From Candidatus Woesearchaeota archaeon (GTDB taxonomy: Archaea; Nanobdellota; Nanobdellia; Pacearchaeales; GW2011-AR1): DNA of 60,335 bases. The position numbers were made by a program, and so were the translations under genes. Shown here piece by piece: positions 37,710 to 59,449 of this stretch (position 1 is the first letter of the stretch; every line of letters starts with the position of its first letter). The stretch spans positions 1 through 60,335 of the forward strand of contig CAZSQR010000001.1 of assembly GCA_964609265.1 (NCBI GenBank), in the 5' to 3' direction. The notes below the pieces were generated by a model that was not told the DNA's origin, did no database searches, and worked only from the letters and a program-made list of their open reading frames with translations.

Positions 37710-39491
37710 ATGAATAAGCCAGATAATCAAATAATTTTTAAAACTTCTAATTCTAATAGATATATGAAAAGAAAAGAATTAATCAAAAAATATCTTAAAT
37801 TTTTTCAGTCAAAAAACCATAAAGAAATTCCAAATGTTTCTTTAATTCCTGAAAATGATCCTACTGTGCTTTTTACAACAGCAGGAATGCATCCATTAAC
37901 TCCATACCTTCTTGGCCAGAAACACCCCTTAGGAAAAAGATTGTGCAGTGTTCAGAGATGCTTAAGAACAAGTGATATAGAAATGGTCGGGGATGAAATA
38001 CACCACACTTTTTTTGAAATGCTCGGAAACTGGAGCTTGGGAGATTACTGGAAAAAAGAGGCAATTGAATTAAGTTTTGAATTTCTCACAAAAGTCCTAA
38101 AAATTCCAAAAGAAAAATTATCAGTTACATGCTTTGCAGGAGACGAAAATGCAAAAAAAGACGAAGAATCAGAAAAAATATGGAAATCTCTTGGAATAAA
38201 GAAAATAAAATTTCTTGGAAAAGAAGATAATTGGTGGGGACCAGCAGGAAACACTGGACCATGCGGACCAGATACAGAGATATTTGTTAATGGAGTTGAA
38301 ATCTGGAATGATGTTTTTATGGAATATGAAAAAGATATAAAAGGAAATTACAAAACTGCAGAACAAAAAAACATTGACACAGGTATGGGTATTGAGAGAA
38401 CCCTCGCTGTTCTAGATGGATTAGATGATAATTATTTAACTGAAGTCTGGAAACCAATAATAAAAAAAATAGAAAAACTTTCTGGGAAAAAATATTCAGA
38501 AAACAAAAGAGAAATGAGAATAATCGCAGACCACATCAAAGCAGCCGTATTTCTTCTTAATGATGGGATTCAACCAGGGCACAAAGAAAGAGGATATGTG
38601 CTAAAAAGATTAATAAGAAGGGCCATAGTTTATGGGAAAAAATTAGGATTAAGAGATTTTACTTTAAAAGTGGCAAAAGTTGTAATTGATATATACTCAG
38701 ATTATTTTCCTAAAAATGATAAAAGGGTTTGGTTTGTCAATAGAGATACCAAAACATTTATTCTTCAGGAGATGGATAGAGAAGAGGCTACATTTAATTG
38801 TAGAATAGAAGAAGGATTTAAGATATTAAAAAATATAATAATACATAAAAAGGAAATTTCTCCAACAGATGCTTTCTTATTATATCAATCATATGGATTT
38901 CCTATTGAATTGACACAAGAAATTGCAAAAAATGAAGGCCTTAAGATAAATATAGTTAAATTTGCAAAAGAATTTGAAAAGGAACTCAAAAAACACCAGC
39001 AACTCTCGCGAACAGCGTCGGAAGGAAGGTTCAAATCAGGTTTAGCAGATCAATCAGAAAAAACAACAAAACTTCACACAGCAACACATTTATTATTGTC
39101 AGCGTTAAGAAATATATTAAAAGATAAAAACATAATTCAAAAAGGAAGCAACATAACCCCCAAGAGATTGCGACTTGATTTTTCTTTCCCGCGAAAATTA
39201 ACCAATGAAGAGATTAAAAAAGTTGAAGATCTGGTAAATAAACAGATTAAAAATTCTTTGGAAGTTATAAGAGAAGAAATGTCTCCTGCAAAAGCAAAGA
39301 CAAAAGGAGCTATGGGGATATTTGATAAAAAATACGGAGAAAAAGTTTCAGTTTACACAATTGGAGATTTTTCCAAAGAGATCTGCGCAGGTCCTCATGT
39401 GAAAAACACACAAGAAATAGGAATCTTCAAAATTATAAAAGAAGAGTCAGTTGCAGCAGGAATAAGAAGGATTAAGGCTGTTGTTGCCTAA
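37710..39491 (+). CDS. alaS: Alanyl-tRNA synthetase, short bacterial-like form (catalytic + editing domains, no C-Ala domain)
   Basis: FFQSKNHKEIPNVSLIPENDPTVLFTTAGMHP, FFEMLGNWSLGDY, GMGIERT, editing HTATHLL...CAGPHV. The likely true start is ATG 37764 (MKRKELIKKYL...), about 25 nt after a TATA-like atttttaaaac. Confidence 0.88.
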   Translation: MNKPDNQIIFKTSNSNRYMKRKELIKKYLKFFQSKNHKEIPNVSLIPENDPTVLFTTAGMHPLTPYLLGQKHPLGKRLCSVQRCLRTSDIEMVGDEIHHTFFEMLGNWSLGDYWKKEAIELSFEFLTKVLKIPKEKLSVTCFAGDENAKKDEESEKIWKSLGIKKIKFLGKEDNWWGPAGNTGPCGPDTEIFVNGVEIWNDVFMEYEKDIKGNYKTAEQKNIDTGMGIERTLAVLDGLDDNYLTEVWKPIIKKIEKLSGKKYSENKREMRIIADHIKAAVFLLNDGIQPGHKERGYVLKRLIRRAIVYGKKLGLRDFTLKVAKVVIDIYSDYFPKNDKRVWFVNRDTKTFILQEMDREEATFNCRIEEGFKILKNIIIHKKEISPTDAFLLYQSYGFPIELTQEIAKNEGLKINIVKFAKEFEKELKKHQQLSRTASEGRFKSGLADQSEKTTKLHTATHLLLSALRNILKDKNIIQKGSNITPKRLRLDFSFPRKLTNEEIKKVEDLVNKQIKNSLEVIREEMSPAKAKTKGAMGIFDKKYGEKVSVYTIGDFSKEICAGPHVKNTQEIGIFKIIKEESVAAGIRRIKAVVA

Positions 39492-40712: not shown

Positions 40713-43700
40713 TTACTCCAAATAAATTCCGGGCTTACCCGGTTTAACTTTTCTTGATTTATTTTTTGGATCGTGTTTGCCTTTATCATTTACTGCATAG
40801 ATGCCCACCTGGAAGCCTGTTCTTCTCTCAATTTCTCTAAAGTAATCAACATAGATTTCTTTTTCTGAAGGAACACTATAAAGATAGATTTTATTAATTT
40901 TTTTCCCTTTATCCCTGACTATCTTGATTATATTATTTATATCATTAATCACATTGTTTATGATCTCTTCTTCTTTTTCAAGCTTTTCATCAATCTTACT
41001 CTTTTCAAATTCGGGCCAGCTTTCCAAACTTACAAAATTTTTATTGTCAATTTTCTGCCAGAGTTCTTCTGTAATATGCGGACAAAAAGGATGCAATAAT
41101 TTCAAGAAAGATTCCGCAGTTTCTTTGCTAATCTCACTCTTAAAACCATCAAACAATTTTCTAATCTTTATCACAGCAAGATTGTATCTAAAATTTTCAA
41201 TATCCAGAGTAACCTCTTTAATTGACTTATGTAATTTACTCTGAATTTTTTTGTCTGTTTTTCCAAATTTAATTTTTTCAAAATAATCCATAACTTTTTT
41301 CACAAATCTAAAACTTCCCTCAATTCCTGCATCACTCCACTCAATGTCTTTATCAGGAGAAGCTATGCTGACCAAAAACAATCTTGCGGCATCAATCCCA
41401 TATTCTTTAGAGACCTCTTCAGGTAACACAACATTTCCCCTTGACTTGGACATAACCATGCCGTCTTCTCCGTGAAGCATTCCCTGATTAAACAATTTTG
41501 TAAATGGTTCATCAAAATCTAGAAATCCTAAATCTCTTAATGCTTTTGTGAAAAACCGCGCATAAATTAAATGCATGCACGCATGTTCTGCACCGCCAAC
41601 ATATTGATTAACCGGCATCCAATAATCTATTTTTTTCTTATTAAAAGACTCTTTCTTATTTTTGCTGTCACAATATCTTAAATAATACCAGCTGCTGTCA
41701 AAAAAAGTATCCATAGTGTCTGTCTCTCTTCTTGCTTTTTTACCGCATCCCGGACATTTAACATTTATCCAGTTTTTTGCTGTTTTAAGAGGATTTCCTT
41801 TTCCAAATTTAACTTTCTCCGGAAGTTTAACCGGAAGGTCCTTTTCAGGTACAGGAACAACTCCACACTTGTCACAATAAACAATTGGAATCGGCGTCCC
41901 CCAATACCTCTGCCTTGAGACAAGCCAGTCTCTTAATTTATACTGGACAGATTTTCTTCCAAGATCTTCTCCTTCTAAATATTGCGTAATATTCCATTTC
42001 GCTTTATGATTTTCAAGTCCGTTAAATCTCCCAGAATTAATCAAAAATCCGTCGCCTGTGTAAGCTTCTTTTTTTACATTTCCCCCTTTAATCACTTGCT
42101 TAATTTTAATTCCATATTTCTTGGCAAACTCAAAATCTCTCTGATCATGCGCAGGAACAGCCATCACCATCCCAGAACCATAATCAGCAATCACAAAATT
42201 TCCAACATAAACAGGAATTTTCTCTTTGTTAATTGGATTGATTGCATAAATCCCAGTAAAAACTCCCTCTTTTTCCAATTTTCCTAACTCTCCTTCACTA
42301 ACTGATTTTATTTTTTTCAAAAATTTCTCAACTTCTTTTTTCTGCTTATTTGTAACTAACTCAAAAAGTTTTGGATGCTGTGCAGAAATCACCATAAAAG
42401 TAACGCCAAAAATAGTATCAGGACGCGTTGTGAAGATTGGCCATTTTTGTTTTGAAATTATTTTCTCAAAAAGTTCAGGGAATTCCTTAGTGCCCATACT
42501 TTTCTCTACAAAATGCCCAAATCCTTTTTCAAAACAAACAACTTTTGCAGGTAATTCCTTCTCATAGTTATATGCGTTTGTAATATGATGCGGATAGTCG
42601 TCCTTGGCTGTAAAAAGGATTATTTTTTCGTTCACAAATTCCTGAATATTCTTATATGTTTTGCTTCCGTATAGATTATCTAAGTATCTCATATGCCATC
42701 CTCCTGCTTTTCCAGGTGAAACCAAAATCAACTTCCTAATCTTCTTTTTGGTCTCTCCCAGCCAACGAACTAAGAAAGCTCCTCCTGCACTATGCCCAAT
42801 TAAAACAGAATTTTCGCCAATCTTTAATTTTTCAAGTTCCTTTTTCCAGTCCTTATATTTTGGTGCCCAGCTTGCAGGCATTAAAGGAGTCTCACATTTT
42901 ATTCCCTTTTTCCCTAATTTCTTTTTTATCCAGGGAAGCCAGTTTCTCTTATTTTGAGGAGGCGAACCTCCCTTAAGTTTTTCTTTCTCTTTTTGATTAC
43001 TCCCATGAACAATTATAACATTTGAAATTTCCTTATCAGGATTTTCAATCTCAAAATCAATCTCGGTTCCTTCGCTTCTCCCAATCCAATTCCTCTGCAT
43101 AATTTTAATTCTCTCAGGCCATTGCAACTTTTCAATATCCTGCAGAAGTTCTTCGGCATATTTTGTAGTTTTAATAAACCATTGCTCAAGTTGTTTTGTT
43201 TCCACGTCGGTATCTTCATGTCTCCAACATTTCCCTTTATGCACCTGTTCGTTTGCCAGAACAGTGCCGCATTTCCTGCACCAATTCACAGGAGATTTTT
43301 TTCTGTAAATTAAACCTTTCTCCAGAAATTTCAAAAAGAAAAACTGGTTCCATTTATAATATTCAGGGCTATGGCTCCACAAAATTCTGCTCCAGTCATA
43401 ACTCAAACCGAGCTGTTTTTGTTGCATTAAAAAATTTTTTATTGATTTTTCAGTATATCTCCTCGGATGCATCTTCGCTTTTATCGCGGCATTCTCAGCA
43501 GGCAAACCAAAACTATCATAACCCATTGGATAAAGAACATTAAAACCACTCATCCTCTTGAATCTCGCATAAATATCCCCAATTGTATAATTAAAAGCAT
43601 GTCCCATGTGCAACCCGCTTCCTGAAGGATAAGGATACATCTCAAGAACAAAAAACTTTTTTTTCTTTTTATTTTCTTTCACTTCAAAAATCTTTTTCTC

Positions 43701-43754
43701 TTCCCATTTCTTCTGCCACTTTCTTTCTATTTTTTTAAAGTTGATTGAGGACAT
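40713..43754 (-). CDS. leuS: Leucyl-tRNA synthetase, bacterial type, with an inserted alpha/beta serine-hydrolase domain of about 190 aa
   Basis: HMGHAFNY (HIGH), QRNWIGRSEG, TTRPDTIFG, AVPAHDQRDFEFA (CP1), VMSKSRGN (KMSKS). The insertion VIIVHG...LIGHSAGG...AKDD...GFGHF lies between RSEG and TTRPDT. Confidence 0.9.
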   Translation of the reverse strand: MSSINFKKIERKWQKKWEEKKIFEVKENKKKKKFFVLEMYPYPSGSGLHMGHAFNYTIGDIYARFKRMSGFNVLYPMGYDSFGLPAENAAIKAKMHPRRYTEKSIKNFLMQQKQLGLSYDWSRILWSHSPEYYKWNQFFFLKFLEKGLIYRKKSPVNWCRKCGTVLANEQVHKGKCWRHEDTDVETKQLEQWFIKTTKYAEELLQDIEKLQWPERIKIMQRNWIGRSEGTEIDFEIENPDKEISNVIIVHGSNQKEKEKLKGGSPPQNKRNWLPWIKKKLGKKGIKCETPLMPASWAPKYKDWKKELEKLKIGENSVLIGHSAGGAFLVRWLGETKKKIRKLILVSPGKAGGWHMRYLDNLYGSKTYKNIQEFVNEKIILFTAKDDYPHHITNAYNYEKELPAKVVCFEKGFGHFVEKSMGTKEFPELFEKIISKQKWPIFTTRPDTIFGVTFMVISAQHPKLFELVTNKQKKEVEKFLKKIKSVSEGELGKLEKEGVFTGIYAINPINKEKIPVYVGNFVIADYGSGMVMAVPAHDQRDFEFAKKYGIKIKQVIKGGNVKKEAYTGDGFLINSGRFNGLENHKAKWNITQYLEGEDLGRKSVQYKLRDWLVSRQRYWGTPIPIVYCDKCGVVPVPEKDLPVKLPEKVKFGKGNPLKTAKNWINVKCPGCGKKARRETDTMDTFFDSSWYYLRYCDSKNKKESFNKKKIDYWMPVNQYVGGAEHACMHLIYARFFTKALRDLGFLDFDEPFTKLFNQGMLHGEDGMVMSKSRGNVVLPEEVSKEYGIDAARLFLVSIASPDKDIEWSDAGIEGSFRFVKKVMDYFEKIKFGKTDKKIQSKLHKSIKEVTLDIENFRYNLAVIKIRKLFDGFKSEISKETAESFLKLLHPFCPHITEELWQKIDNKNFVSLESWPEFEKSKIDEKLEKEEEIINNVINDINNIIKIVRDKGKKINKIYLYSVPSEKEIYVDYFREIERRTGFQVGIYAVNDKGKHDPKNKSRKVKPGKPGIYLE

Positions 43755-43784: not shown

Positions 43785-44936
43785 TTAAGTCTTAATAATT
43801 TCTAAAACATCCTCATGTTGAATTTTCTTTTTTGCATCAGCTAAATTTTTTACTTTATTTGTTATCTCTTTCAACTTTTCATCATTTACTTCAACACCAT
43901 TATCCAATAAAACTTTCTTAACAGCATTTTTTCCAGAATGTTTTCCAATAACTAAATTCTCTCCAACCCAACCAACATTCTCTGCTTTTATTATTTCATA
44001 AGTATCCTTGCAGGCAATAACCCCTGCCTGATGAACCCCCGCCTCGTGAGCAAAAGCATTCTTTCCAACTATTGCTTTATTTCTTTGAACAGCCAAACCA
44101 GTTAAATCCCTTACAAGATTTGAAACAGGACATAATAATTTTGTATTAATATTCAAATTTTTTTTATAATAATCTTTTCTGGTAACTAAATTCATCACAA
44201 CTTCCTCAAGAGACGCATTTCCAGCACGCTCTCCAATTCCATTAATTGTGCATTCAATTTGGGTTGCCCCAGCTTCAACAGCAGCCAGAGAATTTGCAAC
44301 AGCATTTCCCAAATCATTATGACAATGAGCAGAAATTTTAATATTCTTTTCTCTTATTAAATCTCCAAGAGAATCAAAAACATATTGAAACCTTTTTTTA
44401 ATTTCTTCTGGAACAGCATAACCTACGGTATCTGGAAGATTAATTATTCCTGCTCCTGCATTAATCGCTGTTTTTATTACATCAATCATAAAAGAATATT
44501 CTGTTCTGATTGCATCTTCTAAAGAAAATTCAATTTCTGGGCAGAGAGATTTTGCATATCTTATACTTTTTTTAGTTTTCTCAATTACTTCTTTAGGAGA
44601 CATCTTCAACTTTTTCTCCATATGAATTTTAGATGTTCCAAGAAAAATATGAATTCGAGGTCTTTTAGAATATTTAACGGCTTCATAACATCTATAAATA
44701 TCTTTTTCAAGTGCTCTTGCCAAACCACAAATAACAGGACCTTTTACTTTTTGTGCAATTTTTTTAACGGCGTAAAAATCATCAGCACTTGCAATAGGAA
44801 AACCCGCTTCAATAACATCCACCCCCAAATTTCTCAAAGCATAAGCTATGTCCAATTTTTCACGAGAATTAAGAGTAGCTCCTGGACTTTGCTCTCCATC
44901 TCTTAAAGTTGTATCAAAAATCTCAATAGAATTCAT
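43785..44936 (-). CDS. 2-isopropylmalate/homocitrate/citramalate synthase-family protein (catalytic TIM barrel only)
   Basis: [51 protein letters not shown]. 383 aa, with no LeuA-type regulatory domain. Confidence 0.8.
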
Positions 44937-49739: not shown

Positions 49740-52700
49740 ATGGGAAGAACTCGAATAGCTAAAGCTATAATTTTGTCATTAAGGGAGAAAATAAACCTTG
49801 CTGAAAAAGGTGAAAAATATTTTTTAGATTATTTAAATAAACTAGAAGAAAAATATCAGAAGGGGGAAATTTTCTATGATTTTTATGTTGAGACTATTTA
49901 CAAACATTTCGAAGGAAGAACAATAAAAGGATGGATTGAGTATTATGATAATTACATAAAAGGATGTAAAAAAAAGATAAAAGAACAGAAAAAGACTTTA
50001 TTAAGGAAAAAAATTTTGAATAGTTTTCTTTTCTTATTTTTCTTTTCTGTTTTAACCTTAAGCATTCTTAATACATCAGTGAAATTCACTGGTTTTGGAG
50101 TGCAGGAACAGGAGAATTTGACCAAAAATATTACAGAATTTAATGAATCAGATTCAGATGAAATAAAAGGAGAGATTTCTCAAAACCAAACAAATATAAG
50201 TTCTTCCCAAGAGAAATCTCCTCCTTTTTCTGAAACAACAGAAGAATCAGCTGAAGAAAATATAACAAAATCAGAAGAGAATATAACAGAAATTTCTGAA
50301 GAAGAGGTACCAGTTAATATAACAGAAAATGAAACTGAAGTAAACATTACAGAACCAGAAGAGAATATCACTGAAGAAATACCTGAAGAACCAGAAACAA
50401 ATATAACAGAGTCAGAAGAGAATGCAACTGCAGAGGTTCCTGAAGAGATACCTGAAACAAATATAACAGAAAATATTACTGAAGAGATTACTGAAGAAAT
50501 AAATATCACTGCAAATGCAACCATCACAACAATCCAACAGCAAGCAGTTCTTGGACAGCCAGTTAAATGGAAAAAACAAATTTCTCCAGAGACCCCTGGA
50601 AATCTGACATTAAAACTGCCAAAAGAGGCAGAAAACATACAAATTAATAAAATAAAAGAAAAACAAGAAACAAAGGCAAGAGCAAGCATTACAGGAGGAG
50701 TTATTGGAACAGGAGAAAAAGAATCAATAATTTTAAAGATATTTAATTTCTTCAAAAATTTTTTAAATAAAATATTTGGAACAATAACAGGAAAGGCAAT
50801 AGCAACAGAAGGAGAAGAAAAAGAAATTGAGGTAGAGATTGATGATGAGACTGCAGAATATGAAATTGAATATGAAACTCCTGCACCTTATGCAATTGAA
50901 GAAGACTTGCAGAATGGAAAAAAGATAACTATTGTTGGCCCAGAAACAATTCACTATGAAAATGTTCTGGCTTTCACAGAGTTAAACGAAAAGCTTAATA
51001 TCAAAAATCCCTTTTCTGTAAAAATTTACTGGATTGAAAATGACTCATATATACCCATACAGAACATAAATGATTCAGACAGCAACGGAATTTATGACTA
51101 TATTGAATGGGTTGTGCCGAGTTTGTCAGAGCAAACATTTGAAATAATTGTTATAACAAAAGCAGAGCACCTTAATGAGAATAAGGAATTTATTTCTGAC
51201 ATTTATGAAGAAGTTAAGGAGTTAGATGATATATGGAGTGAGGAAATTTCAGATGGAGAGTATATAAGAGTCACTTTTGAAAGGGCACTTGATAATACAA
51301 AAGATATAACAATTTACCCCCGCATTACAAACGGAGATCCAAGAATAGAAGTTTATGAAATTAATGGCACAGAATTAATTGCAGAATTTTCTGAAATTAA
51401 TTCAAATGAATATAATACAGCTTACTTAACCAATCTCCAAGGACAAAAGGATGTTTTTGATTTAAAGATTTTAGACGGAAATATCGAAATTGATTATATT
51501 GTTGATCCTCTAGCAGAGATAACAAAAGTAGGAACAGATACATATAATTCAAGTGCAGCTTCACCATTAGAATTTTCACACACTCTTGTCGAAGGAGATA
51601 ACAGATTAGTTGTTGTTTACTTTGGTGCTGAAAATAATGGTGAAAATGATGTAACAAGTGTAACTTATGGTGGACAATCCATGACCCAGGCTGTTGAAGA
51701 TGGTGGAACAGGAACAGGATACCAAAACAGAGCAGAAATTTGGTATATTCTGGAGAATGACCTTCCATCTAATGGTGCTAATACAGTATCAGCTACAATT
51801 ACTCCAGCAAGTACATTAGATTTTAAGGCATATGCTGCTGAATATACTGGTGTAAATCAGGGAATACCTGAAGCCACAGACGGAACTTATCAAACATCGG
51901 GTTCTACAATTGAAAATACAATTAGTCCTTCTACTGATGCTTGGGTGTTTTCAGCAATGGACGAAGGAAATACAGGTTCTTGGGCACATGGCCAAAGTCA
52001 GGAAGAATTGTGGGACTTTCAAGATGCTTCTTCACAATTTGCTGTTACAGAACTTCGTGGTGCAGATGGGGAAACATCAGTAGATTCTACTTTTACAGGA
52101 ACTGCCAATCGTTTGGCAAGAGTTGCTGCATCATTTGCACCTGCAATAACCAATTCCGCACCATCAACACCAACAAACATAACTTGTGATGGGGGAAATT
52201 GTAACATAACTATTGATACTACTGTTAATATAAATGCCTCTGGCTCCGTAGACGATGATTCAGATGATATAACTTATTTCATTGAAGCTTCTTTAGAAGA
52301 TATAGTAACAAGCGAAAATTCAACAGATGTTAGTATGGCTGGGAGTGGGGGAAGTGGAGGGGGAATTGCATTATATGATGGTTTCAATGAAGGTCCGGCA
52401 GAAGGTCAAGTATCTACAAGTAATTGGGCTGATGGTGGGGGTGACTATTATTGGTTGTATGGTGATGGTAATACGCCATCAGGTACCACAGGTGACAATG
52501 TCAATGTAGAAGGTGACTATTTTATTTATATAGAGTCATCAAGTCACACTAATGAAAACAATTACCTCGTCAGTTCTGAATTCGAATTAGCTTCTAGCGA
52601 TACTTTAGTTCTTGACTTCTTGTATTATATGTATGGTGCGCATATACAAACTTTAAAAATTGAGATAGATTACGGTGGTGGTTGGGATGAACTCTGGAGC

Positions 52701-55193
52701 GCGGGTCCTGGACAGATACAAACAGGTTTTGGTCAAGCATGGTCACATGGTCTTGCATATGCATCGGATGGTGCAAACGCACCTTATACTGGAACACATC
52801 AGATAAGAATAAATGGATTATCAGGTACTAGTTATTATGGTGATATATGTGTTGATGTTGTTTATCTTAATGTTACAGGAAGTAGTGGAACCTCAAATGA
52901 AACAAACACAACAGCAATAGAATATACTGATGTTGGTGTTGATGGAGTAGGCATAACTAATGTCACGATACAAGTTGATGTTACTTCTTATGATCCAAGA
53001 GCAAGTGTGGACCAGTCAACAAATGACCCTGATTTATGGCTTGAAATGTGGAACAGCACAGACTGGATAAATATCGGAGCATTTGACTTGCCTTCAACTT
53101 ATACAGGAACAGGACTACAAACAAATAATGAGAACTTTTCCTTGAGCACAACAGATTCAGAAATACTAACTGCATGGGCAAGCTCTGTAAATCAAGACCT
53201 AAGAATAAAAGGAGTTTATATGGACCATAATGAAACTCTTCCAGACCAAATCAATTATACAAATATTTGGATAAGTATTAATGGTAAGTTATGGATAGAA
53301 ATTGGAAACCATACAGAATCTACTTTTTTAACATGGAATACAACTGATTCAGATGACCAAAATTGCATTGATTTGAGGGCAAGAGCAATTGATTTAGCTG
53401 GAAGCAATACATATTCAGGCTACTTCAACAAAAGCTGTTGCTTAAACATAAGCCACGGGGGGGGAGATACCGAAGGTCCAGCAATAAGTAATGAAGGAGC
53501 TAATGAAACTGAAATTTACCAAAATGAATATTTTTGCCTGAACATAACTGCAACAGATTCCAGCGGAGTCAGTGCTGTTTATGCAGAAATCTGGAATACA
53601 ACTGACTGGTTAAATTATACAATGACTGATGCAGGCTCCACAACCTGTGATGGGGGAAGTGATGATAACATCTATGGAGTTGAAATTCAGGGGACAGCAA
53701 CAGGATTATGGAATTATAGCAAGGTTCATGCAAATGACACATTAAACAATTGGAACTCTCATGATTTTTCTGATTTAACAATAAATGTAACATCAGTGCC
53801 AAATCAGGCTCCACAGATAACATTTGTCTCACCAATACCAAACACAGACCCGACAGAATCTTCCTCAAAGTTAATAACATTTTATGCAACAATGTATGAC
53901 GCAGATGGTGTTGGTGATTTAAATGACGCAAGTGTAAATGCAAGCTTTAGCAAATCAGGACAAACAACAAGATACAATTCAAGCTGTGTGCTAGTTGGAG
54001 ACTTAGATGCAAACTCTGCGAATTATTCCTGCACAATAACCATGTGGTATTTTGATGGGAATGGGGCCTGGACAATAACAGTTTATGGTGAAGATGATGA
54101 GCCAGCTTCTGCTACAAATGATACAGAAACTTTTACTTACAATTTATTACAGGCAATTGTAATTTCTCCAACTCAGATTTCATTAGATGTACAAACTGGA
54201 GCAAAAAACCAGACATCAGATAATGATCCTACAACAGTTAATAATACAGGAAATGCAGAAATAACGTCTGGAAATTTAAGAGTAATTGGAATAGACTTAT
54301 ACGGAGAAACTGATGATAGTGTCTTTATTGGTGTTGGGAATTTTTCTGTAGATATAGATACAGGAGGCTCACCTCCTGCAGAGTGCGACGGCACAACTTT
54401 TGTAAATGGAACAGAAACAGGCATAACCGGAGCAACATTACCGAAGGGGAATTTATCAGTAGGAGGGGGGGCAGGACAAGAACAACTTTATTATTGCATA
54501 AGACAAGTCCCCCAAATATCTTCCCAGACTTATTCAACTTCAAAAGCAGGAAGCTGGACAATAAAAATTGTTATGAGTTTCATTTTTGTATACTCTGCTC
54601 AATTAAGTAATAAAAAGACAAAACAGAAGAAGAAAAAGAAGAAGAAATTAGTAAAAGATGATAAACTTATAGGGGCATTGAATCTTATCTTAGATGAATT
54701 AAAAGAAGAATATTCATTAAATAAAAAAGAAATAATTAAAATAATACTTGAAAAATTAAAAACAAAATATAAAATAAGCAGAAGGGAAATTAATAAAATA
54801 ATTGGAGGAAAAGAATTCTTAATTCCAATAACAATTTTCTCCAAAGAACTTGGTGGTTTGGAAGCAATAACAAAATATATGAAGGAGAATTTAAATATGA
54901 ATTATAGTGACATTGCAAAAGAACTTGAAAGAAATGAAAGAACAATTTGGACAGCATATAATAAGGCAATAAATAAACAAAAAGAATCAATTAAGCCGAA
55001 AGAAACAAAAATATTCTTGCCCATTTCAATATTTGAAAATAACAAATTAACAATACTTGAATCTGTTATTATTTATCTAAAACAAAAAGGATTGAAATAC
55101 ATTGAAATAGCAAAATCATTAAATAGAGACCAAAGAAACATATGGACGATTTATTCAAGGGCTACTAAAAAAATAAAAGATAATAATATTTAA
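49740..55193 (+). CDS. Giant (1,817 aa) two-pass envelope protein: cytoplasmic N-terminus, TM, glycan-sequon-rich ectodomain with MAM-like domain, hydrophobic/poly-K segment, cytoplasmic tandem HTH tail
   Basis: Basic stretch then TM ILNSFLFLFFFSVLTLSIL. NITE repeats. MAM-like FLYYMYGAHIQTLKIEI...GDICVDVVYL. IKIVMSFIFVYSAQL + KKTKQKKKKKKK. Two repeats of ~55 aa with ...IAKxLxRxxRxIWTxY... Confidence 0.8.
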   Translation: MGRTRIAKAIILSLREKINLAEKGEKYFLDYLNKLEEKYQKGEIFYDFYVETIYKHFEGRTIKGWIEYYDNYIKGCKKKIKEQKKTLLRKKILNSFLFLFFFSVLTLSILNTSVKFTGFGVQEQENLTKNITEFNESDSDEIKGEISQNQTNISSSQEKSPPFSETTEESAEENITKSEENITEISEEEVPVNITENETEVNITEPEENITEEIPEEPETNITESEENATAEVPEEIPETNITENITEEITEEINITANATITTIQQQAVLGQPVKWKKQISPETPGNLTLKLPKEAENIQINKIKEKQETKARASITGGVIGTGEKESIILKIFNFFKNFLNKIFGTITGKAIATEGEEKEIEVEIDDETAEYEIEYETPAPYAIEEDLQNGKKITIVGPETIHYENVLAFTELNEKLNIKNPFSVKIYWIENDSYIPIQNINDSDSNGIYDYIEWVVPSLSEQTFEIIVITKAEHLNENKEFISDIYEEVKELDDIWSEEISDGEYIRVTFERALDNTKDITIYPRITNGDPRIEVYEINGTELIAEFSEINSNEYNTAYLTNLQGQKDVFDLKILDGNIEIDYIVDPLAEITKVGTDTYNSSAASPLEFSHTLVEGDNRLVVVYFGAENNGENDVTSVTYGGQSMTQAVEDGGTGTGYQNRAEIWYILENDLPSNGANTVSATITPASTLDFKAYAAEYTGVNQGIPEATDGTYQTSGSTIENTISPSTDAWVFSAMDEGNTGSWAHGQSQEELWDFQDASSQFAVTELRGADGETSVDSTFTGTANRLARVAASFAPAITNSAPSTPTNITCDGGNCNITIDTTVNINASGSVDDDSDDITYFIEASLEDIVTSENSTDVSMAGSGGSGGGIALYDGFNEGPAEGQVSTSNWADGGGDYYWLYGDGNTPSGTTGDNVNVEGDYFIYIESSSHTNENNYLVSSEFELASSDTLVLDFLYYMYGAHIQTLKIEIDYGGGWDELWSAGPGQIQTGFGQAWSHGLAYASDGANAPYTGTHQIRINGLSGTSYYGDICVDVVYLNVTGSSGTSNETNTTAIEYTDVGVDGVGITNVTIQVDVTSYDPRASVDQSTNDPDLWLEMWNSTDWINIGAFDLPSTYTGTGLQTNNENFSLSTTDSEILTAWASSVNQDLRIKGVYMDHNETLPDQINYTNIWISINGKLWIEIGNHTESTFLTWNTTDSDDQNCIDLRARAIDLAGSNTYSGYFNKSCCLNISHGGGDTEGPAISNEGANETEIYQNEYFCLNITATDSSGVSAVYAEIWNTTDWLNYTMTDAGSTTCDGGSDDNIYGVEIQGTATGLWNYSKVHANDTLNNWNSHDFSDLTINVTSVPNQAPQITFVSPIPNTDPTESSSKLITFYATMYDADGVGDLNDASVNASFSKSGQTTRYNSSCVLVGDLDANSANYSCTITMWYFDGNGAWTITVYGEDDEPASATNDTETFTYNLLQAIVISPTQISLDVQTGAKNQTSDNDPTTVNNTGNAEITSGNLRVIGIDLYGETDDSVFIGVGNFSVDIDTGGSPPAECDGTTFVNGTETGITGATLPKGNLSVGGGAGQEQLYYCIRQVPQISSQTYSTSKAGSWTIKIVMSFIFVYSAQLSNKKTKQKKKKKKKLVKDDKLIGALNLILDELKEEYSLNKKEIIKIILEKLKTKYKISRREINKIIGGKEFLIPITIFSKELGGLEAITKYMKENLNMNYSDIAKELERNERTIWTAYNKAINKQKESIKPKETKIFLPISIFENNKLTILESVIIYLKQKGLKYIEIAKSLNRDQRNIWTIYSRATKKIKDNNI
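50247..50525 (+). repeat. Imperfect tandem array encoding acidic N-I-T-E sequon repeats
   Basis: EENITKSEENITEISEEEVPVNITENETEVNITEPEENITEEIPEEPETNITESEENATAEVPEEIPETNITENITEEITEEINITANATITT. That is 11 N-x-T sequons in about 93 aa. Confidence 0.85.
53802..54563 (+). repeat. Copy A of a duplicated module of about 760 bp (C-terminal ectodomain of the giant gene)
   Basis: Shares long identical runs with 55374-56124, e.g. ataccaaacacagacccgacagaatcttc and gcagatggtgttggtgattt. The proteins align end to end (...SPIPNTDPTESSSK.ITFYA.MYDADGVGDLND...GSWTI). Confidence 0.85.
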
Positions 55194-56721: not shown

Positions 56722-58476
56722 ATGAAAAAAAGAGAAATTTTTTTATTTATTTTTTTACTTTTTATTATATTAATTATTTTGCCAGCAACAAGTATCCTAA
56801 CAGGAAAGGTATCAGTTCAGCCGACAAACATATCAATACAAGTATTACCTACTAGCCCTACATTATCCATAATTTCCCCCCAAAATAAAACTTACTTAAC
56901 TAATATATCCCTATTATTAGATTATTCAGCAGTTAATGCTGAAAACATATGGTATAATCTCGACAATGGAGATAATACAACTATAACCTCTTCAATATAT
57001 TTCAATACTTCTCAGGGGGGACATATACTTTATTTACACGCGAATAATACTTATGGAACAACAACAGAAAATGTAAGCTTTATTGTAAATTCTACAAGAT
57101 TCATAATCTCATACAGCGAGTATAACGGCTCTACAAAAGGTAATTCAACTGATTTCATTGAGTATACTTACGAAGACTTACAAAACCTATCAGGAATAAT
57201 TTTAGAAAACACACAACATGGAAAAATAAATTTTAATGAAATTATTAATTCAACAAATGACTCTAATACTGGTGATAATAAACTTGACTTAGACACTTAT
57301 ATTAATATATCCCCAAATAGAATAGAATTAAACTCAACAGCTATCCCAAATTTCAATAAGTCAGCAACACTTTCTCTTTATAATTTAACATTTAGTAATC
57401 CTAGGATATTAAGAGATGGGAGTGTCTGTCCTTCAACTATCTGCACAGAACAGAGTTATTCTAGTGAAACCGGCACCCTTGTATTTAATGTAACACATTT
57501 TACAGTTTATTCTGCGGAAGAAACACCTGCAGGAGCTGTCATAACAGGGGGAAGTGGCGGGGGAAGAGCTGGTAAAAAGGATTTTTCTGTAGATAAAGAA
57601 ACTCTTTCAGTAACCTTAAAACAAGGAGGGACAGCAAAAGATTTCTTCATCATAAAAAATACAGGAAATAAAGTATTAAGTTTTACAATCCAAACCCAAA
57701 ACATTGAAAAATTTTTAAAGGTAGATGAATTAAGTTTCAGCTTAAATGCTGGTGAATCTAAAATGGTCATCTTAGATTTTTTAGCGAGATCTGAGGTTAC
57801 ACCTGCTTTATATCTTGGAAAACTCATCATTAAAGCAGGTGCTAGTTCTATAATTGAAAAAGAAATTTTAGTTTCAATTGAGGTTGAATCCAGAAATCCT
57901 ATTTTTGATGTTAAAGTGGAGATACCAAAAAGATTTCGATATTTAATGCCAGGAGAAGAATTAATTTCTAATATAAAAATTTTTAATTTAGAAAGAGAAA
58001 GAACTACTGACGTATTTGTAGAGTATATTATAAAAGATGAGGAAGAAAATGAAATTCTGTATGAAACTGAAACTATTTTTGTAGAAACTCAGACAAGTTT
58101 TGTTAAGAGTTTTGAAATTCCAAAAAATATAAAATTAGGCACATATATCTTTTATGTAAGAACAACTTATAATGGAGAAGTAGCAAGCTCAACTTCATGG
58201 TTTAATATTGGACAAAAATCATTGGCATCTTTTATTTTAAGAAATCTGAATTTAATAGGGATAATCTTAGGCATAATTTCAACGTTTATAATCTTAATAA
58301 TCATATTGCGTAAATTCGGGGAAAAAGAGATTAAATTTCCAAAATTAATAAAAAAGAAGAAAGAAAGAAAAGGTTTTTTTAAGTCTATTTTCAAAAAGAA
58401 AGAAGAAAAAAGAGATAGGGGACTTAAATATTATAAACAAAGAATAAGGAAGGAAATAGAAAAACATAAAAAGTGA
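56722..58476 (+). CDS. Envelope protein (584 aa): signal/anchor, sequon-rich domains, two Ig-like/CARDB-like repeats, C-terminal TM + basic tail
   Basis: MKKREIFLFIFLLFIILIIL...LTGKVSVQPTNISIQV. Many N-x-S/T sequons. VTLKQGGTAKDFFIIKNTGNKVLSF. C-terminal LIGIILGIISTFIILIIIL RKFG. Confidence 0.65.
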   Translation: MKKREIFLFIFLLFIILIILPATSILTGKVSVQPTNISIQVLPTSPTLSIISPQNKTYLTNISLLLDYSAVNAENIWYNLDNGDNTTITSSIYFNTSQGGHILYLHANNTYGTTTENVSFIVNSTRFIISYSEYNGSTKGNSTDFIEYTYEDLQNLSGIILENTQHGKINFNEIINSTNDSNTGDNKLDLDTYINISPNRIELNSTAIPNFNKSATLSLYNLTFSNPRILRDGSVCPSTICTEQSYSSETGTLVFNVTHFTVYSAEETPAGAVITGGSGGGRAGKKDFSVDKETLSVTLKQGGTAKDFFIIKNTGNKVLSFTIQTQNIEKFLKVDELSFSLNAGESKMVILDFLARSEVTPALYLGKLIIKAGASSIIEKEILVSIEVESRNPIFDVKVEIPKRFRYLMPGEELISNIKIFNLERERTTDVFVEYIIKDEEENEILYETETIFVETQTSFVKSFEIPKNIKLGTYIFYVRTTYNGEVASSTSWFNIGQKSLASFILRNLNLIGIILGIISTFIILIIILRKFGEKEIKFPKLIKKKKERKGFFKSIFKKKEEKRDRGLKYYKQRIRKEIEKHKK

Positions 58477-58733: not shown

Positions 58734-59288
58734 TCATCGAATAAATTCTAAAATCTCTGGAATTTCTTTCACATCATTAAAATGTTTTTTATTATGCTTG
58801 ATAATTATTTTTGCATCTAAATTTTTTTTGAATTTTTCAATCTCATCCAAGTGAACATAAGGGTCATCATCTGAAAAAAGTGCCAGAAAATTATTGCAAT
58901 GGTCCAGAATTCTTTCAAAATGAATCTCGGAATTTATCCAGGGATGGGCAATTTCCATTTCTTCTGGCTCAAGATTGATTAAATCAAACCAGCCAGCAAC
59001 AAAAACACATCCTGCAATCCTTTTGTGCTTGTGCAATTTTTCCAAAAATCTCATGATAGTCTGGCATCCAATACTGTGCCCAACAAAATAAGTTTTCTCG
59101 TCGATTTCACCTGGATTAATTTTTTCCTCTAAATATCTCACCCATTCCTCAATTTTAGGTTCATCAGTATTTGGCATATCAAAAGATTCAACTTCAAAAC
59201 TTTTTTTTGGAAGTTCTTGTTTTAACCAGTCAAACCAACCTCCTTCTGAACTTCCTCCCCACCCATGAATTAAATATACTTTTCTCAT
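58734..59288 (-). CDS. YdeN/RBBP9-family alpha/beta serine hydrolase
   Basis: MRKVYLIHGWGGSSEGGWFDWLKQEL...YFVGHSIGCQTIMRFLE...FSDDDPYV...KKHF matches the B. subtilis YdeN pattern (from memory). The track's longer ORF (to 59342) runs into tRNA-Cys, so ATG 59288 was chosen. Confidence 0.7.
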   Translation of the reverse strand: MRKVYLIHGWGGSSEGGWFDWLKQELPKKSFEVESFDMPNTDEPKIEEWVRYLEEKINPGEIDEKTYFVGHSIGCQTIMRFLEKLHKHKRIAGCVFVAGWFDLINLEPEEMEIAHPWINSEIHFERILDHCNNFLALFSDDDPYVHLDEIEKFKKNLDAKIIIKHNKKHFNDVKEIPEILEFIR

Positions 59289-59300
59289 TTTATTATAAAA

Positions 59301-59373
59301 AGCGAGGACTGGGAATTGAACCCAGGAATACTCGGGCTGCAACCGAGCGCGTTAACCTCTTCGCCATCCCCGC
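59301..59373 (-). tRNA. tRNA-Cys (anticodon GCA)
   Basis: Reverse complement gcggggatggcgaagaggttaacgcgctcggttGCAgcccgagtattcctgggttcaattcccagtcctcgct. Discriminator is U, as expected for Cys. Confidence 0.88.
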
Positions 59374-59374
59374 A

Positions 59375-59449
59375 TGCCCCCGACAGGGTTTGAACCTGCG
59401 ACCTACTGCTTAGAAGGCAGTCGCTCTATCCAGGCTGAGCTACAGGGGC
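59375..59449 (-). tRNA. tRNA-Arg (anticodon UCU)
   Basis: Reverse complement gcccctgtagctcagcctggatagagcgactgcctTCTaagcagtaggtcgcaggttcaaaccctgtcgggggca. Clean cloverleaf, only 1 nt from tRNA-Cys. Confidence 0.88.

What the first reader, a model, noticed from the sequence alone, without database searches (positions are those of the whole stretch)
42447..43028. LeuRS with a YdeN/RBBP9-type serine-hydrolase domain inserted at the gateway to its CP1 editing domain
Seen: in the 1,013-aa bacterial-type LeuRS, the segment between ...QRNWIGRSEGTEIDFEIENPDKEIS and KWPIFTTRPDTIFG... is a block of about 190 aa (residues ~243-436). Bacterial LeuRS normally has about 15-20 residues there. The inserted block reads VIIVHGSNQ...NWLPWIKKKL...MPASWAPKYKDW...SVLIGHSAGGAFLVRWL...LILVSPG...LFTAKDDYPH...GFGHFVE. 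It matches, motif for motif, the free-standing hydrolase at 58734-59288: LIHGWGG...WFDWLKQEL...MPNTDEPKIEEW...YFVGHSIGCQTIMRFL...VFVAGW...LFSDDDPYV...KKHF. It has a nucleophile elbow GHSxG plus Asp and His, the YdeN/RBBP9 serine-hydrolase pattern. The flanking synthetase and CP1 motifs (HIGH, TTRPDT, AVPAHDQRD, KMSKS) are intact and in frame, so this is not a pseudogene or a gene-boundary artefact. No intein signatures are present. Inference: an esterase fold has been grafted onto the hinge that delivers the tRNA 3' end to the editing site. The aminoacyl-tRNA bond is an ester, so the domain could act as an extra or alternative deacylase, or moonlight in something unrelated. I am not aware of a described aaRS carrying this domain.
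Basis: partly seen in the sequence, partly recalled or inferred. Interest (0 to 1): 0.75.

Follow-up and report, generated by a model that had tools for sequence, protein, structure and literature searches.

The report
Serine hydrolase nested inside leucyl-tRNA synthetase
A complete, apparently active small serine hydrolase sits inside the proofreading domain of this archaeon's leucyl-tRNA synthetase, and it is one case of a widespread, apparently undescribed habit of ultra-small archaea and bacteria of nesting small hydrolase domains in this one enzyme.

Summary
The 1,013-aa bacterial-type LeuRS (40713-43754, minus strand) carries about 197 extra residues (239-435) at the tip of the first beta-hairpin of CP1, six residues before TTRPDT. 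The insert is a whole YdeN/RBBP9-type hydrolase: PF06821 scores 36 bits against a cut-off of 22, the AF2 model has pLDDT 95.8, and TM is 0.76-0.82 to 1UXO/7OEX. It is not an assembly artefact. Eighty of the 120 closest LeuRS carry an insert at the same site, and Ser and His are invariant. The acid residue is Asp or Glu in 78 of 80. HIGH, KMSKS and the CP1 editing residues are intact, so the domain adds to CP1 and does not replace it.

The site is inside CP1, not at the hinge. Insert-less orthologues occupy the same locus. The same hydrolase subfamily is nested at six different LeuRS sites in DPANN archaea and CPR bacteria, often alongside NUDIX, Ham1 or ASCH. It also occurs free-standing and, rarely, in UvrB, EngA and a glycosyltransferase.

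Best reading: an autonomous aminoacyl-type hydrolase repeatedly tethered to LeuRS. Its substrate is unknown. I found no published description.

The parts
40713..43754 (-). leuS: bacterial-type leucyl-tRNA synthetase, 1,013 aa, the host of the nested domain
   Evidence: ORF. TIGR00396 scores 925 bits against a cut-off of 548. The full-length AF2 model has pLDDT 89.1 and pTM 0.78, and its best Foldseek hits are the T. thermophilus, N. gonorrhoeae and E. coli LeuRS.
42450..43040 (-). Nested YdeN/RBBP9-type serine hydrolase domain (residues 239-435). It corresponds to a whole free-standing ORF, from its N-terminus to its C-terminal EFPELL helix.
   Evidence: Supported. In the full model the flanking strands 226-237 and 436-442 form the host hairpin.
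43002..43007 (-). His250-Gly251, the HG motif that precedes the oxyanion hole in alpha/beta hydrolases
   Evidence: Conserved in 99% of 80 embedded domains and 100% of 111 free-standing ones.
42783..42797 (-). Nucleophile elbow G-H-S-A-G (residues 320-324). Ser322 is at 42789-42791.
   Evidence: Ser322 is invariant in 80 of 80 embedded domains. It aligns with the YdeN and RBBP9 GHSxG serine.
42597..42599 (-). Asp386, the candidate catalytic acid
   Evidence: This column is Asp (53) or Glu (25) in 78 of 80 embedded domains. The D/E split is the same in free-standing copies.
42513..42515 (-). His414, the candidate catalytic base (GHF motif)
   Evidence: Invariant in 80 of 80 embedded and 111 of 111 free-standing domains.
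42414..42431 (-). CP1 threonine-rich editing motif TTRPDT (residues 442-447), six residues after the insert
   Evidence: T442, T443, R444, D446 and T447 are invariant in 101 LeuRS, with or without the insert.
42135..42152 (-). CP1 editing motif AHDQRD (residues 535-540), containing the conserved Asp
   Evidence: H536, D537, R539 and D540 are invariant in 101 LeuRS.
43599..43610 (-). HIGH-type motif HMGH (residues 49-52)
41442..41456 (-). KMSKS-type motif VMSKS (residues 767-771)
58737..59288 (-). Free-standing PF06821 hydrolase, a distant paralogue of the insert
   Evidence: PF06821 scores 86.9 bits. Identity to the insert is 27%, E 5e-12. It is the only other copy in the window.

Best explanation
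Shown:
- A complete YdeN/RBBP9-family serine hydrolase ORF is nested in frame at the tip of the first beta-hairpin of the LeuRS CP1 editing domain.
- The host keeps its aminoacylation and CP1 editing motifs.
- The nested domain keeps the same constrained residues as its free-standing relatives: HG, GxSxG, acid, His.
- This is one instance of a recurrent, polyphyletic association. The same hydrolase subfamily is nested at six different LeuRS positions in DPANN archaea and CPR bacteria.

Inferred:
- The polypeptide is a working LeuRS with an extra, autonomously folding and catalytically competent hydrolase tethered to it.
- Being tied to LeuRS is what is selected, not the exact docking geometry.
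- By analogy with RBBP9, which forms acyl-enzymes with free-alpha-amine hydrophobic amino acids (Leu/Ile, Met, Phe, Tyr, Trp), the substrate is probably an alpha-aminoacyl ester or amide.
- The most likely role is an auxiliary clean-up or proofreading hydrolase. It would act near LeuRS on aminoacyl esters that CP1 does not handle: released mis-acylated tRNA(Leu), aminoacyl-adenylate, or other aminoacyl esters or thioesters made as side-products.
- It would work beside CP1, not instead of it.
For: Identity and fold.

Catalytic residues: among 80 embedded domains that average 41% identity, Ser and His are invariant and the acid is Asp or Glu in 78 of 80. No position apart from the termini distinguishes embedded from free-standing copies.

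Host intact: HIGH, KMSKS and the CP1 editing residues are invariant.

Not an artefact: 80 of the 120 nearest LeuRS, from four data sources, carry an insert at the same site. Twenty-two of 80 hits in GTDB species genomes are embedded in LeuRS-length ORFs.

Recurrent LeuRS-specific capture, six sites:
- A: the CP1 hairpin, as in the window.
- B: the CP1 loop after AHDQRD (P0155, P0165, P0285, P0245, P0438).
- D: before NWIGRS (P0261).
- E: the end of CP1 (P0387, P0390, P0418, P0427).
- F: the catalytic core about 25 residues after YKLRDW (P0446, P0454).
- C: the start of the anticodon-binding domain (P0384).
These rest. The contigs of P0387 and P0384 are genuinely bacterial. LeuRS is therefore the host in at least 6 of about 12 independent fusion or nesting events seen, and no IleRS, ValRS or MetRS host appeared among the top 150 representatives.

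Company it keeps: NUDIX, Ham1 and ASCH domains occupy the same LeuRS loops. The hydrolase is also fused to NUDIX or Ham1 outside LeuRS.

Precedent, from general knowledge: cis editing domains with free-standing homologues, such as ProRS INS and YbaK, or AlaRS and AlaX.
Against: - No activity or substrate has been measured.
- Insert-less orthologues sit at the same syntenic locus. They are as close to the window's backbone (74% identity) as any insert-bearing one apart from the 99%-identical P0121. The domain is therefore dispensable for LeuRS.
- No LeuRS column co-varies with the presence of the insert.
- The putative specificity region (residues 346-370) is not conserved.
- One MAG has both an embedded and a free-standing copy (L004 and L046), so the two forms are not simply alternatives.
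- The same subfamily is nested in UvrB, EngA and a GT2 enzyme. Several unrelated domain families share the LeuRS loops, which could simply reflect structural permissiveness.
- Site C lies in the anticodon-binding domain. From general knowledge of LeuRS structure that is far from the acceptor end, but I did not measure it.
Confidence: 0.4

Rival explanations
1. Passenger domain. The hydrolase is a functional housekeeping enzyme with no mechanistic link to LeuRS. It was inserted by chance into permissive surface loops. It is kept because only a precise deletion can remove it from an essential gene, and because the fusion gives it free, constitutive expression in a streamlined genome.
For: - Embedded and free-standing copies share the same constraints.
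- The two forms are interleaved in a neighbour-joining tree. For 22 of 80 embedded copies the nearest relative is free-standing, at up to 78% identity.
- Presence is patchy among orthologues at one locus.
- No co-adaptation of the host is visible.
- Nesting also occurs in UvrB, EngA and GT2.
- Unrelated NUDIX, Ham1 and ASCH domains use the same LeuRS loops.
Against: - At least six independent LeuRS sites, in two domains of life, were seen, against single cases in other hosts. LeuRS is only about 0.3% of a small proteome, so this is very unlikely by chance. That figure is my own rough estimate.
- No IleRS or ValRS hosts were seen, although they are similar in size and architecture.
- The nested families are all small hydrolases or house-cleaning enzymes, not a random sample of domains.
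Confidence: 0.25
2. Leucine supply. The domain is an RBBP9-like aminopeptidase or esterase that frees N-terminal leucine, or other hydrophobic residues, from scavenged peptides. Fusion to LeuRS couples amino-acid release to charging in organisms that cannot make leucine.
For: - RBBP9 is an aminopeptidase that needs a free alpha-amine and traps Leu/Ile among other residues.
- The fusion does not depend on position (six sites), which fits proximity or co-expression better than precise geometry.
- The association is specific to LeuRS.
- CPR and DPANN organisms are generally auxotrophic (general knowledge).
Against: - It does not explain the co-nested NUDIX, Ham1 and ASCH domains.
- RBBP9 prefers aromatic residues, and its specificity residues are not visibly conserved here.
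- No peptide transporter or peptidase context was seen near the free-standing copies.
Confidence: 0.17
3. The domain is a cis-acting extra or alternative deacylase, placed at the CP1 gateway so that the tRNA 3' end is delivered to it.
For: - The window's site is six residues from the T-rich editing motif.
- Four of the six sites (A, B, D, E) lie in or at the borders of CP1.
- The aminoacyl ester chemistry is plausible.
Against: - Sites C and F lie outside CP1.
- The CP1 editing residues are fully conserved, so the domain is not an alternative to CP1.
- Insert-less orthologues exist.
- The insertion is at a hairpin tip inside CP1, not at the hinge.
- The geometry was not measured.
Confidence: 0.1
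4. A non-catalytic structural or binding module. It could also be an assembly chimera or pseudogene.
For: None beyond the fact that reads could not be mapped here.
Against: - The catalytic Ser and His are invariant in 80 of 80 embedded domains.
- The ORF is intact.
- Base composition is uniform across the junctions.
- The same architecture appears in dozens of independent assemblies, including complete genomes such as CP061211.1.
Confidence: 0.03

Closest known systems
YdeN (B. subtilis, PDB 1UXO) and RBBP9 (human, PDB 2QS9/7OEX), Pfam PF06821 Ser_hydrolase
   Same: The fold is the same small, roughly 190-aa alpha/beta hydrolase (TM 0.76-0.82, rmsd 2.3-2.9 A). The HG and GHSxG motifs and the acid and His residues occur in the same order.
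   Different: Here the domain is nested inside another enzyme. Identity is only 23-24%. It belongs to a CPR/DPANN-specific subfamily with a C-terminal EFPELL motif. RBBP9's amine-anchoring and cage residues (Glu108, Tyr99, Leu103) have no evident counterparts, and that region is variable.
ProRS INS editing domain and free-standing YbaK/ProX, and likewise AlaRS editing and AlaX (general knowledge)
   Same: A hydrolytic module occurs both inserted within an aaRS and as free-standing genes, with patchy distribution.
   Different: The fold is unrelated (alpha/beta serine hydrolase). Deacylase activity is not shown. The module occupies six different positions in the host and also occurs in non-aaRS hosts.
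LeuRS CP1 editing domain
   Same: Both are hydrolytic domains inserted into the Rossmann fold of LeuRS. The new domain is nested within CP1.
   Different: CP1 has no serine-nucleophile triad. CP1 is universal and its residues are invariant here, whereas the hydrolase is optional among orthologues.
Inteins
   Same: Both are whole modules nested in frame in conserved, essential proteins. Both have patchy distribution and relatives in other genetic contexts.
   Different: There is no Hint domain and there are no splice-junction residues. Nothing indicates excision. The domain has an ordinary enzyme fold with free-living orthologues.
IleRS with an extra N-acetyltransferase domain (NCBIfam NF040702 ileS_w_GNAT)
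   Same: Both are class Ia aaRS carrying an additional small enzyme domain. NCBI recognises this one as an 'exception' family (listed).
   Different: The host is different and so is the domain (GNAT). The window protein scores far below that model's cut-off (105 against 1999 bits).

Membership tests
YdeN/RBBP9 serine hydrolase family (Pfam PF06821) | Profile match above the curated gathering score | tested here: met
   36.4 bits for the insert alone and 31.8 bits within the whole protein, against a cut-off of 22. YdeN 1uxo matches at E 3.9e-10.
YdeN/RBBP9 serine hydrolase family (Pfam PF06821) | Compact alpha/beta-hydrolase fold of about 190 aa | tested here: met
   The AF2 model has pLDDT 95.8. 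Foldseek top hits are 1uxo (E 1.8e-11, TM 0.76/0.79) and 7oex/2qs9/9fcr (TM 0.77-0.82).
YdeN/RBBP9 serine hydrolase family (Pfam PF06821) | GxSxG nucleophile plus acid and His in canonical order, conserved | tested here: met
   Ser322 and His414 are 100% conserved, and position 386 is Asp or Glu in 78 of 80 embedded domains. They align to the YdeN motifs.
YdeN/RBBP9 serine hydrolase family (Pfam PF06821) | Triad residues spatially assembled | tested here: inconclusive
   The model is high-confidence and superposes on RBBP9 at 2.3-2.6 A rmsd.
YdeN/RBBP9 serine hydrolase family (Pfam PF06821) | Serine hydrolase activity | not testable with these tools
   This needs fluorophosphonate labelling or substrate assays.
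Bacterial-type LeuRS (TIGR00396) | Equivalog model above cut-off, HIGH and KMSKS present, CP1 with T-rich and Asp motifs | tested here: met
   925 bits against a cut-off of 548. HMGH, VMSKS, TTRPDT and AHDQRD are present and invariant among relatives. The fold matches bacterial LeuRS.
aaRS editing or trans-editing modules (CP1, INS/YbaK, AlaX, DTD) | Homology to a known editing fold | tested here: not met
   The only hits are alpha/beta hydrolases.
aaRS editing or trans-editing modules (CP1, INS/YbaK, AlaX, DTD) | Occurs both within the aaRS and as free-standing homologues | tested here: met
aaRS editing or trans-editing modules (CP1, INS/YbaK, AlaX, DTD) | Deacylates mis-acylated tRNA | not testable with these tools
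   A biochemical assay is required.
Inteins | Hint domain and splice-junction residues | tested here: not met
   No Hint or intein family was hit in Pfam. The junctions read ...IEN|PDKEIS and IISK|QKWP.

The most novel reading that the evidence does not exclude
In ultra-small CPR bacteria and DPANN archaea, LeuRS would serve as a dedicated scaffold for a guild of small hydrolases: YdeN/RBBP9-type serine hydrolase, NUDIX, Ham1/ITPase and ASCH. The serine hydrolase would be a previously unknown, third kind of aaRS-associated proofreading or clean-up activity. It would hydrolyse aminoacyl esters through a covalent acyl-enzyme, acting in cis when nested and in trans when free-standing.
Probability: 0.22. 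Interest if true: 0.9.

Novelty: new variant of a known kind. Interest (0 to 1): 0.72.

Why it matters
aaRS proofreading is thought to rely on a small, closed set of editing folds. A conserved, catalytically intact serine hydrolase repeatedly captured by LeuRS would have one of two explanations. It may add a new hydrolytic activity to translation quality control or amino-acid handling in organisms with minimal genomes. Alternatively, it may show that one essential enzyme is an unusually favoured landing pad for nested enzyme domains.

Either outcome is directly testable with S322A and CP1 mutants. Either would also give a functional handle on the orphan YdeN/RBBP9 family, whose bacterial and archaeal members, as far as I know, have no assigned role.

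There is a practical point too. These proteins are inconsistently named in public records: 'leucine--tRNA ligase', 'class I tRNA ligase family protein', 'alpha/beta fold hydrolase'.

Tried and rejected
1. Insert-only search of the 5.8-billion protein set. It returned only free-standing proteins of about 190 aa and missed the LeuRS hosts, even the 99%-identical P0121. This briefly suggested a unique chimera. The full-length search and the HMMER scan of representatives corrected that.

2. Exact-sequence look-ups of the window LeuRS and of P0121 found nothing on record. The source contig and independent read support could not be obtained.

3. Mutual exclusivity of embedded and free-standing copies, as a test of a cis-or-trans model. 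At least one MAG (CAZQSV01) has both. A full genome-level test was not possible because only 80 loci and 10-kb flanks were available.

4. Co-variation between insert presence and LeuRS columns. None was found.

5. Residues distinguishing embedded from free-standing hydrolases. None apart from the termini.

6. Vertical co-inheritance. Insert identity and backbone identity are uncorrelated (rho -0.05). The window gene looks mosaic: against P0122 and P0123, the CP1+insert region is 80-92% identical while the C-terminal third is only 45-62% identical. The neighbour-joining trees are star-like and were not bootstrapped, so I do not give counts of gains and losses.

7. Target-site duplication. A 9-nt repeat, AATTTCAAA, lies at both junctions. 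It lies in the ISN and ISK stretches at the two ends of the hydrolase sequence. My rough estimate of the chance probability is about 0.1. Rejected as evidence.

8. C-terminal domain (residues 920-1013) against PDB sequences. No significant match.

9. Docking of the domain relative to CP1 and the tRNA path. AF2 coordinates and PAE are not exposed by the tools, so this was not measured.

10. Literature. Seven full-text searches found no description. The library lacks most subscription-journal papers.
Full report
**1. The observation**

The minus-strand ORF 40713..43754 encodes a 1,013-aa protein. It matches the bacterial LeuRS equivalog TIGR00396 at 925 bits against a cut-off of 548. T. thermophilus LeuRS aligns to residues 4-240 and 437-781 with a single residue of its own in between. 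Insert-less orthologues read EILFEI-EGK-KWPIFTTRPDT at this position.

By alignment the extra block is residues 239-435, window 42450-43040.

The block is a hydrolase by every test:
- Pfam PF06821 Ser_hydrolase at 36.4 bits, cut-off 22.
- B. subtilis YdeN at E 3.9e-10 and RBBP9 at 2e-4, by sequence.
- An AF2 model of the block alone has pLDDT 95.8 and pTM 0.92.
- Its best PDB matches are YdeN and RBBP9, at TM 0.76-0.82 and rmsd 2.3-2.9 A.

The free-standing gene at 58737-59288 is a true but distant paralogue (27% identity, E 5e-12). It is the only other copy in the window. No intein family is hit.

**2. Not an artefact**

Base composition is even across both junctions. Of the 120 closest LeuRS cluster representatives, from NCBI, JGI, ENA and Logan, 80 carry a 150-230-aa insert at exactly this site. 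One of them is 99% identical and comes from a contig of a different length.

A scan of GTDB species genomes returned 80 loci. Twenty-two of them lie in LeuRS-length ORFs, including the complete genome CP061211.1.

The full-length AF2 model has pLDDT 89.1 and pTM 0.78. It places the domain between strands 226-237 and 436-442, that is, at the tip of a beta-hairpin. The model matches bacterial LeuRS structures.

**3. Where it sits**

Pfam's CP1 model (PF13603) is split between profile positions 19 and 20. The insertion is therefore inside CP1, six residues before the threonine-rich TTRPDT motif. It is not in the hinge.

HMGH, VMSKS, TTRPDT and AHDQRD are present. The corresponding residues are invariant in 101 aligned LeuRS, whether or not they carry the insert. 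The host therefore looks like a fully competent synthetase with a competent CP1.

**4. Is the nested enzyme alive?**

Across 80 embedded domains that average only 41% identity to one another:
- Ser322 and His414 are invariant.
- HG250-251 and G320/G324 are 99% conserved.
- Position 386 is Asp or Glu in 78 of 80.

Apart from the termini, no position distinguishes 64 embedded from 111 free-standing domains. The insert corresponds to a whole free-standing ORF. For example, P0014 begins MKSKEISNVIIVHGSN, and the window reads DKEISNVIIVHGSN. Both end in the EFPELL helix. This is the signature of selection on catalysis, and of the same enzyme working in two contexts.

**5. Evolutionary behaviour**

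Free-standing relatives are genuine separate genes in varied neighbourhoods. They are common in both DPANN and CPR genomes.

Embedded and free-standing copies are interleaved in a neighbour-joining tree. For 22 of 80 embedded copies the nearest relative is free-standing, at up to 78% identity.

Insert identity does not track backbone identity (rho -0.05). Apart from the 99%-identical P0121, the window's backbone is closest (74%) to insert-less LeuRS. Against P0122 and P0123, its CP1+insert region is 80-92% identical while its C-terminal third is only 45-62% identical. That is a mosaic pattern.

Insert-bearing leuS genes of two sequence types, and insert-less ones, all occupy the same syntenic locus: EndA - leuS - short AlaRS, with S17e or TFIIE nearby. 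The domain is therefore an optional, exchangeable cassette among orthologues. It is not a marker of a paralogue. No LeuRS column co-varies with its presence.

**6. The wider pattern that changes the interpretation**

An exhaustive HMMER scan of 1.84 billion representatives found 1,098 relatives. Among the best 150, many are multi-domain proteins. Pfam scans and direct reading of the sequences show the same subfamily nested in LeuRS at six different places:
- Site D: before NWIGRS (P0261, Levybacteria).
- Site A: CP1 hairpin 1, as in this window.
- Site B: the CP1 loop after AHDQRD (P0155, P0165, P0285, P0245, P0438).
- Site E: the end of CP1, before VNYKLRDW (P0387, P0390, P0418, P0427).
- Site F: the catalytic core about 25 residues after YKLRDW (P0446, P0454).
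- Site C: the first loop of the anticodon-binding domain (P0384, Peregrinibacteria).

The contigs of P0387 and P0384 are genuinely bacterial. One record labelled Patescibacteria (P0168) is in fact archaeal.

Among the 120 nearest relatives of the CPR LeuRS P0387, 25 carry PF06821, 21 carry NUDIX, 2 carry Ham1 and 2 carry ASCH, in the same loops. Many are on contigs of 0.9-1.3 Mb.

Outside LeuRS the hydrolase is nested once each in UvrB, EngA/Der and a GT2 glycosyltransferase. It is also fused end-to-end to NUDIX, Ham1 or YdjC. No IleRS, ValRS or MetRS host appeared.

**7. Mechanism**

Shown:
- A working-looking LeuRS carries a catalytically conserved, autonomously folding YdeN/RBBP9-type hydrolase.
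- The association with LeuRS is recurrent and does not depend on position.

Inferred:
- Tethering to LeuRS is itself advantageous. At least six of about twelve independent events fall in a protein that makes up roughly 0.3% of a small proteome. That figure is my own rough estimate.
- The only member of the family whose chemistry I could document here is RBBP9. It forms acyl-enzymes with free-alpha-amine Leu/Ile, Met, Phe, Tyr and Trp. [quoted passage not shown] It is also cited as a valacyclovir (valyl-ester) activating enzyme (reference list of PMC7730578).

The best-supported reading (0.40) is an auxiliary aminoacyl-ester or amide hydrolase. It would act near LeuRS on products that CP1 does not clear, beside CP1 and not replacing it.

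Rivals:
- A functional passenger in permissive loops (0.25).
- A leucine-liberating aminopeptidase (0.17).
This is weakened by sites C and F, by insert-less orthologues and by the intact CP1.
- A non-catalytic module or an artefact (0.03).

**8. Comparison with what is known**

Membership of PF06821 is met for the profile score, the fold and the conserved triad. Triad geometry and activity were not measured.

The domain is not homologous to any known editing fold, and it is not an intein. It resembles the INS/YbaK and AlaX situations only in occurring both in cis and free-standing.

Seven full-text searches found no description of an aaRS carrying this domain, nor of NUDIX or Ham1 in LeuRS. 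The sequences themselves are public and are inconsistently named.

**9. Verdict**

The feature is real, widespread and apparently undescribed. It is a new variant of a known kind, namely an aaRS with an accessory hydrolytic domain.

Interest is 0.72. It is surprising to a specialist and directly testable, but the function is unresolved and a permissive-loop explanation is not excluded.

Noticed in passing
Relatives P0127, P0133, P0138, P0146, P0164, P0192, P0215, P0225, P0232 (DPANN); P0391, P0395, P0402, P0409, P0419 and others (CPR): A NUDIX domain (PF00293, about 100-150 aa) is nested in a second CP1 loop (site B, after AHDQRD..IKQVI) of many LeuRS. In DPANN it accompanies the hydrolase. 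In CPR it often occurs alone. The window's LeuRS lacks it.
   Followed up: partly
P0392, P0429 (Ham1 at site A); P0399, P0404 (ASCH at site A): In some CPR LeuRS the same hairpin that holds the hydrolase in the window holds a Ham1/ITPase-like or an ASCH domain instead.
   Followed up: partly
P0263 (UvrB), P0265 (EngA/Der), P0251 (GT2), P0270 (hydrolase-NUDIX), P0381 (hydrolase-Ham1), P0298 (YdjC-hydrolase): The same hydrolase subfamily is nested in frame inside UvrB, between the two GTPase domains of EngA, and inside a GT2 glycosyltransferase. It is also fused end-to-end to NUDIX, Ham1 or YdjC.
   Followed up: partly
window 40713-43754 compared with P0122, P0123, P0214, P0160: The LeuRS looks mosaic. 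Residues 211-660 (insert plus CP1) are 80-92% identical to P0122 and P0123, while residues 690-930 are only 45-62% identical to them. The latter region is closer to insert-less LeuRS. This suggests intragenic recombination.
   Followed up: partly
window 37710-39491 (+): The AlaRS-like gene is only 593 aa (tRNA-synt_2c plus a tRNA_SAD motif at its very end), much shorter than usual. A 569-593-aa version is conserved next to leuS in relatives.
   Followed up: no
window 43785-44936 (-): A 383-aa HMGL-like plus HCS_D2 protein (of the isopropylmalate, homocitrate or citramalate synthase type) lies directly upstream of leuS. It is absent from this position in the syntenic loci of relatives.
   Followed up: no
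window 40713-41000 (LeuRS residues about 920-1013) and residues 757-781: This LeuRS lacks the leucine-specific domain. It ends in a conserved C-terminal domain (...KPGKPGIYLE) with no PDB sequence match. Archaeal leuS models match residues 706-969. This may be a bacterial-body, archaeal-tail chimera like the Natrialba LeuRS (PMC4005665).
   Followed up: partly
window 59301-59449 (-): tRNA-Cys(GCA) and tRNA-Arg(TCT) lie in tandem. The mechanical ORF of the free-standing hydrolase (start 59342) overlaps tRNA-Cys, so its real start is probably the ATG at 59288.
   Followed up: partly
L089 (GCA_019428815.1, JAHYJW010000001.1): The record is labelled 'Patescibacteria group bacterium', but the contig is archaeal: Rad50, diphthamide synthase, S17e, EndA, TFIIE and deoxyhypusine synthase.
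   Followed up: yes
window 42450-42460 and 43025-43040: A 9-nt direct repeat, AATTTCAAA, lies at both insert junctions (codons for EISN and IISK). It is probably chance or part of the hydrolase's own termini.
   Followed up: partly
CPR LeuRS, position 442 of P0487 (e.g. P0394, P0398, P0400, P0406): Many CPR LeuRS carry a further insert of about 130 aa with no Pfam match in the catalytic core, about 25 residues after YKLRDW. In others this site holds the hydrolase.
   Followed up: no
window 49740-55193 (+) and 56722-58476 (+): There is a very large ORF of 1,817 aa. There is also a 584-aa ORF with an N-terminal hydrophobic segment and many N-x-S/T sequons, which looks like a surface protein. Neither was examined.
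   Followed up: no
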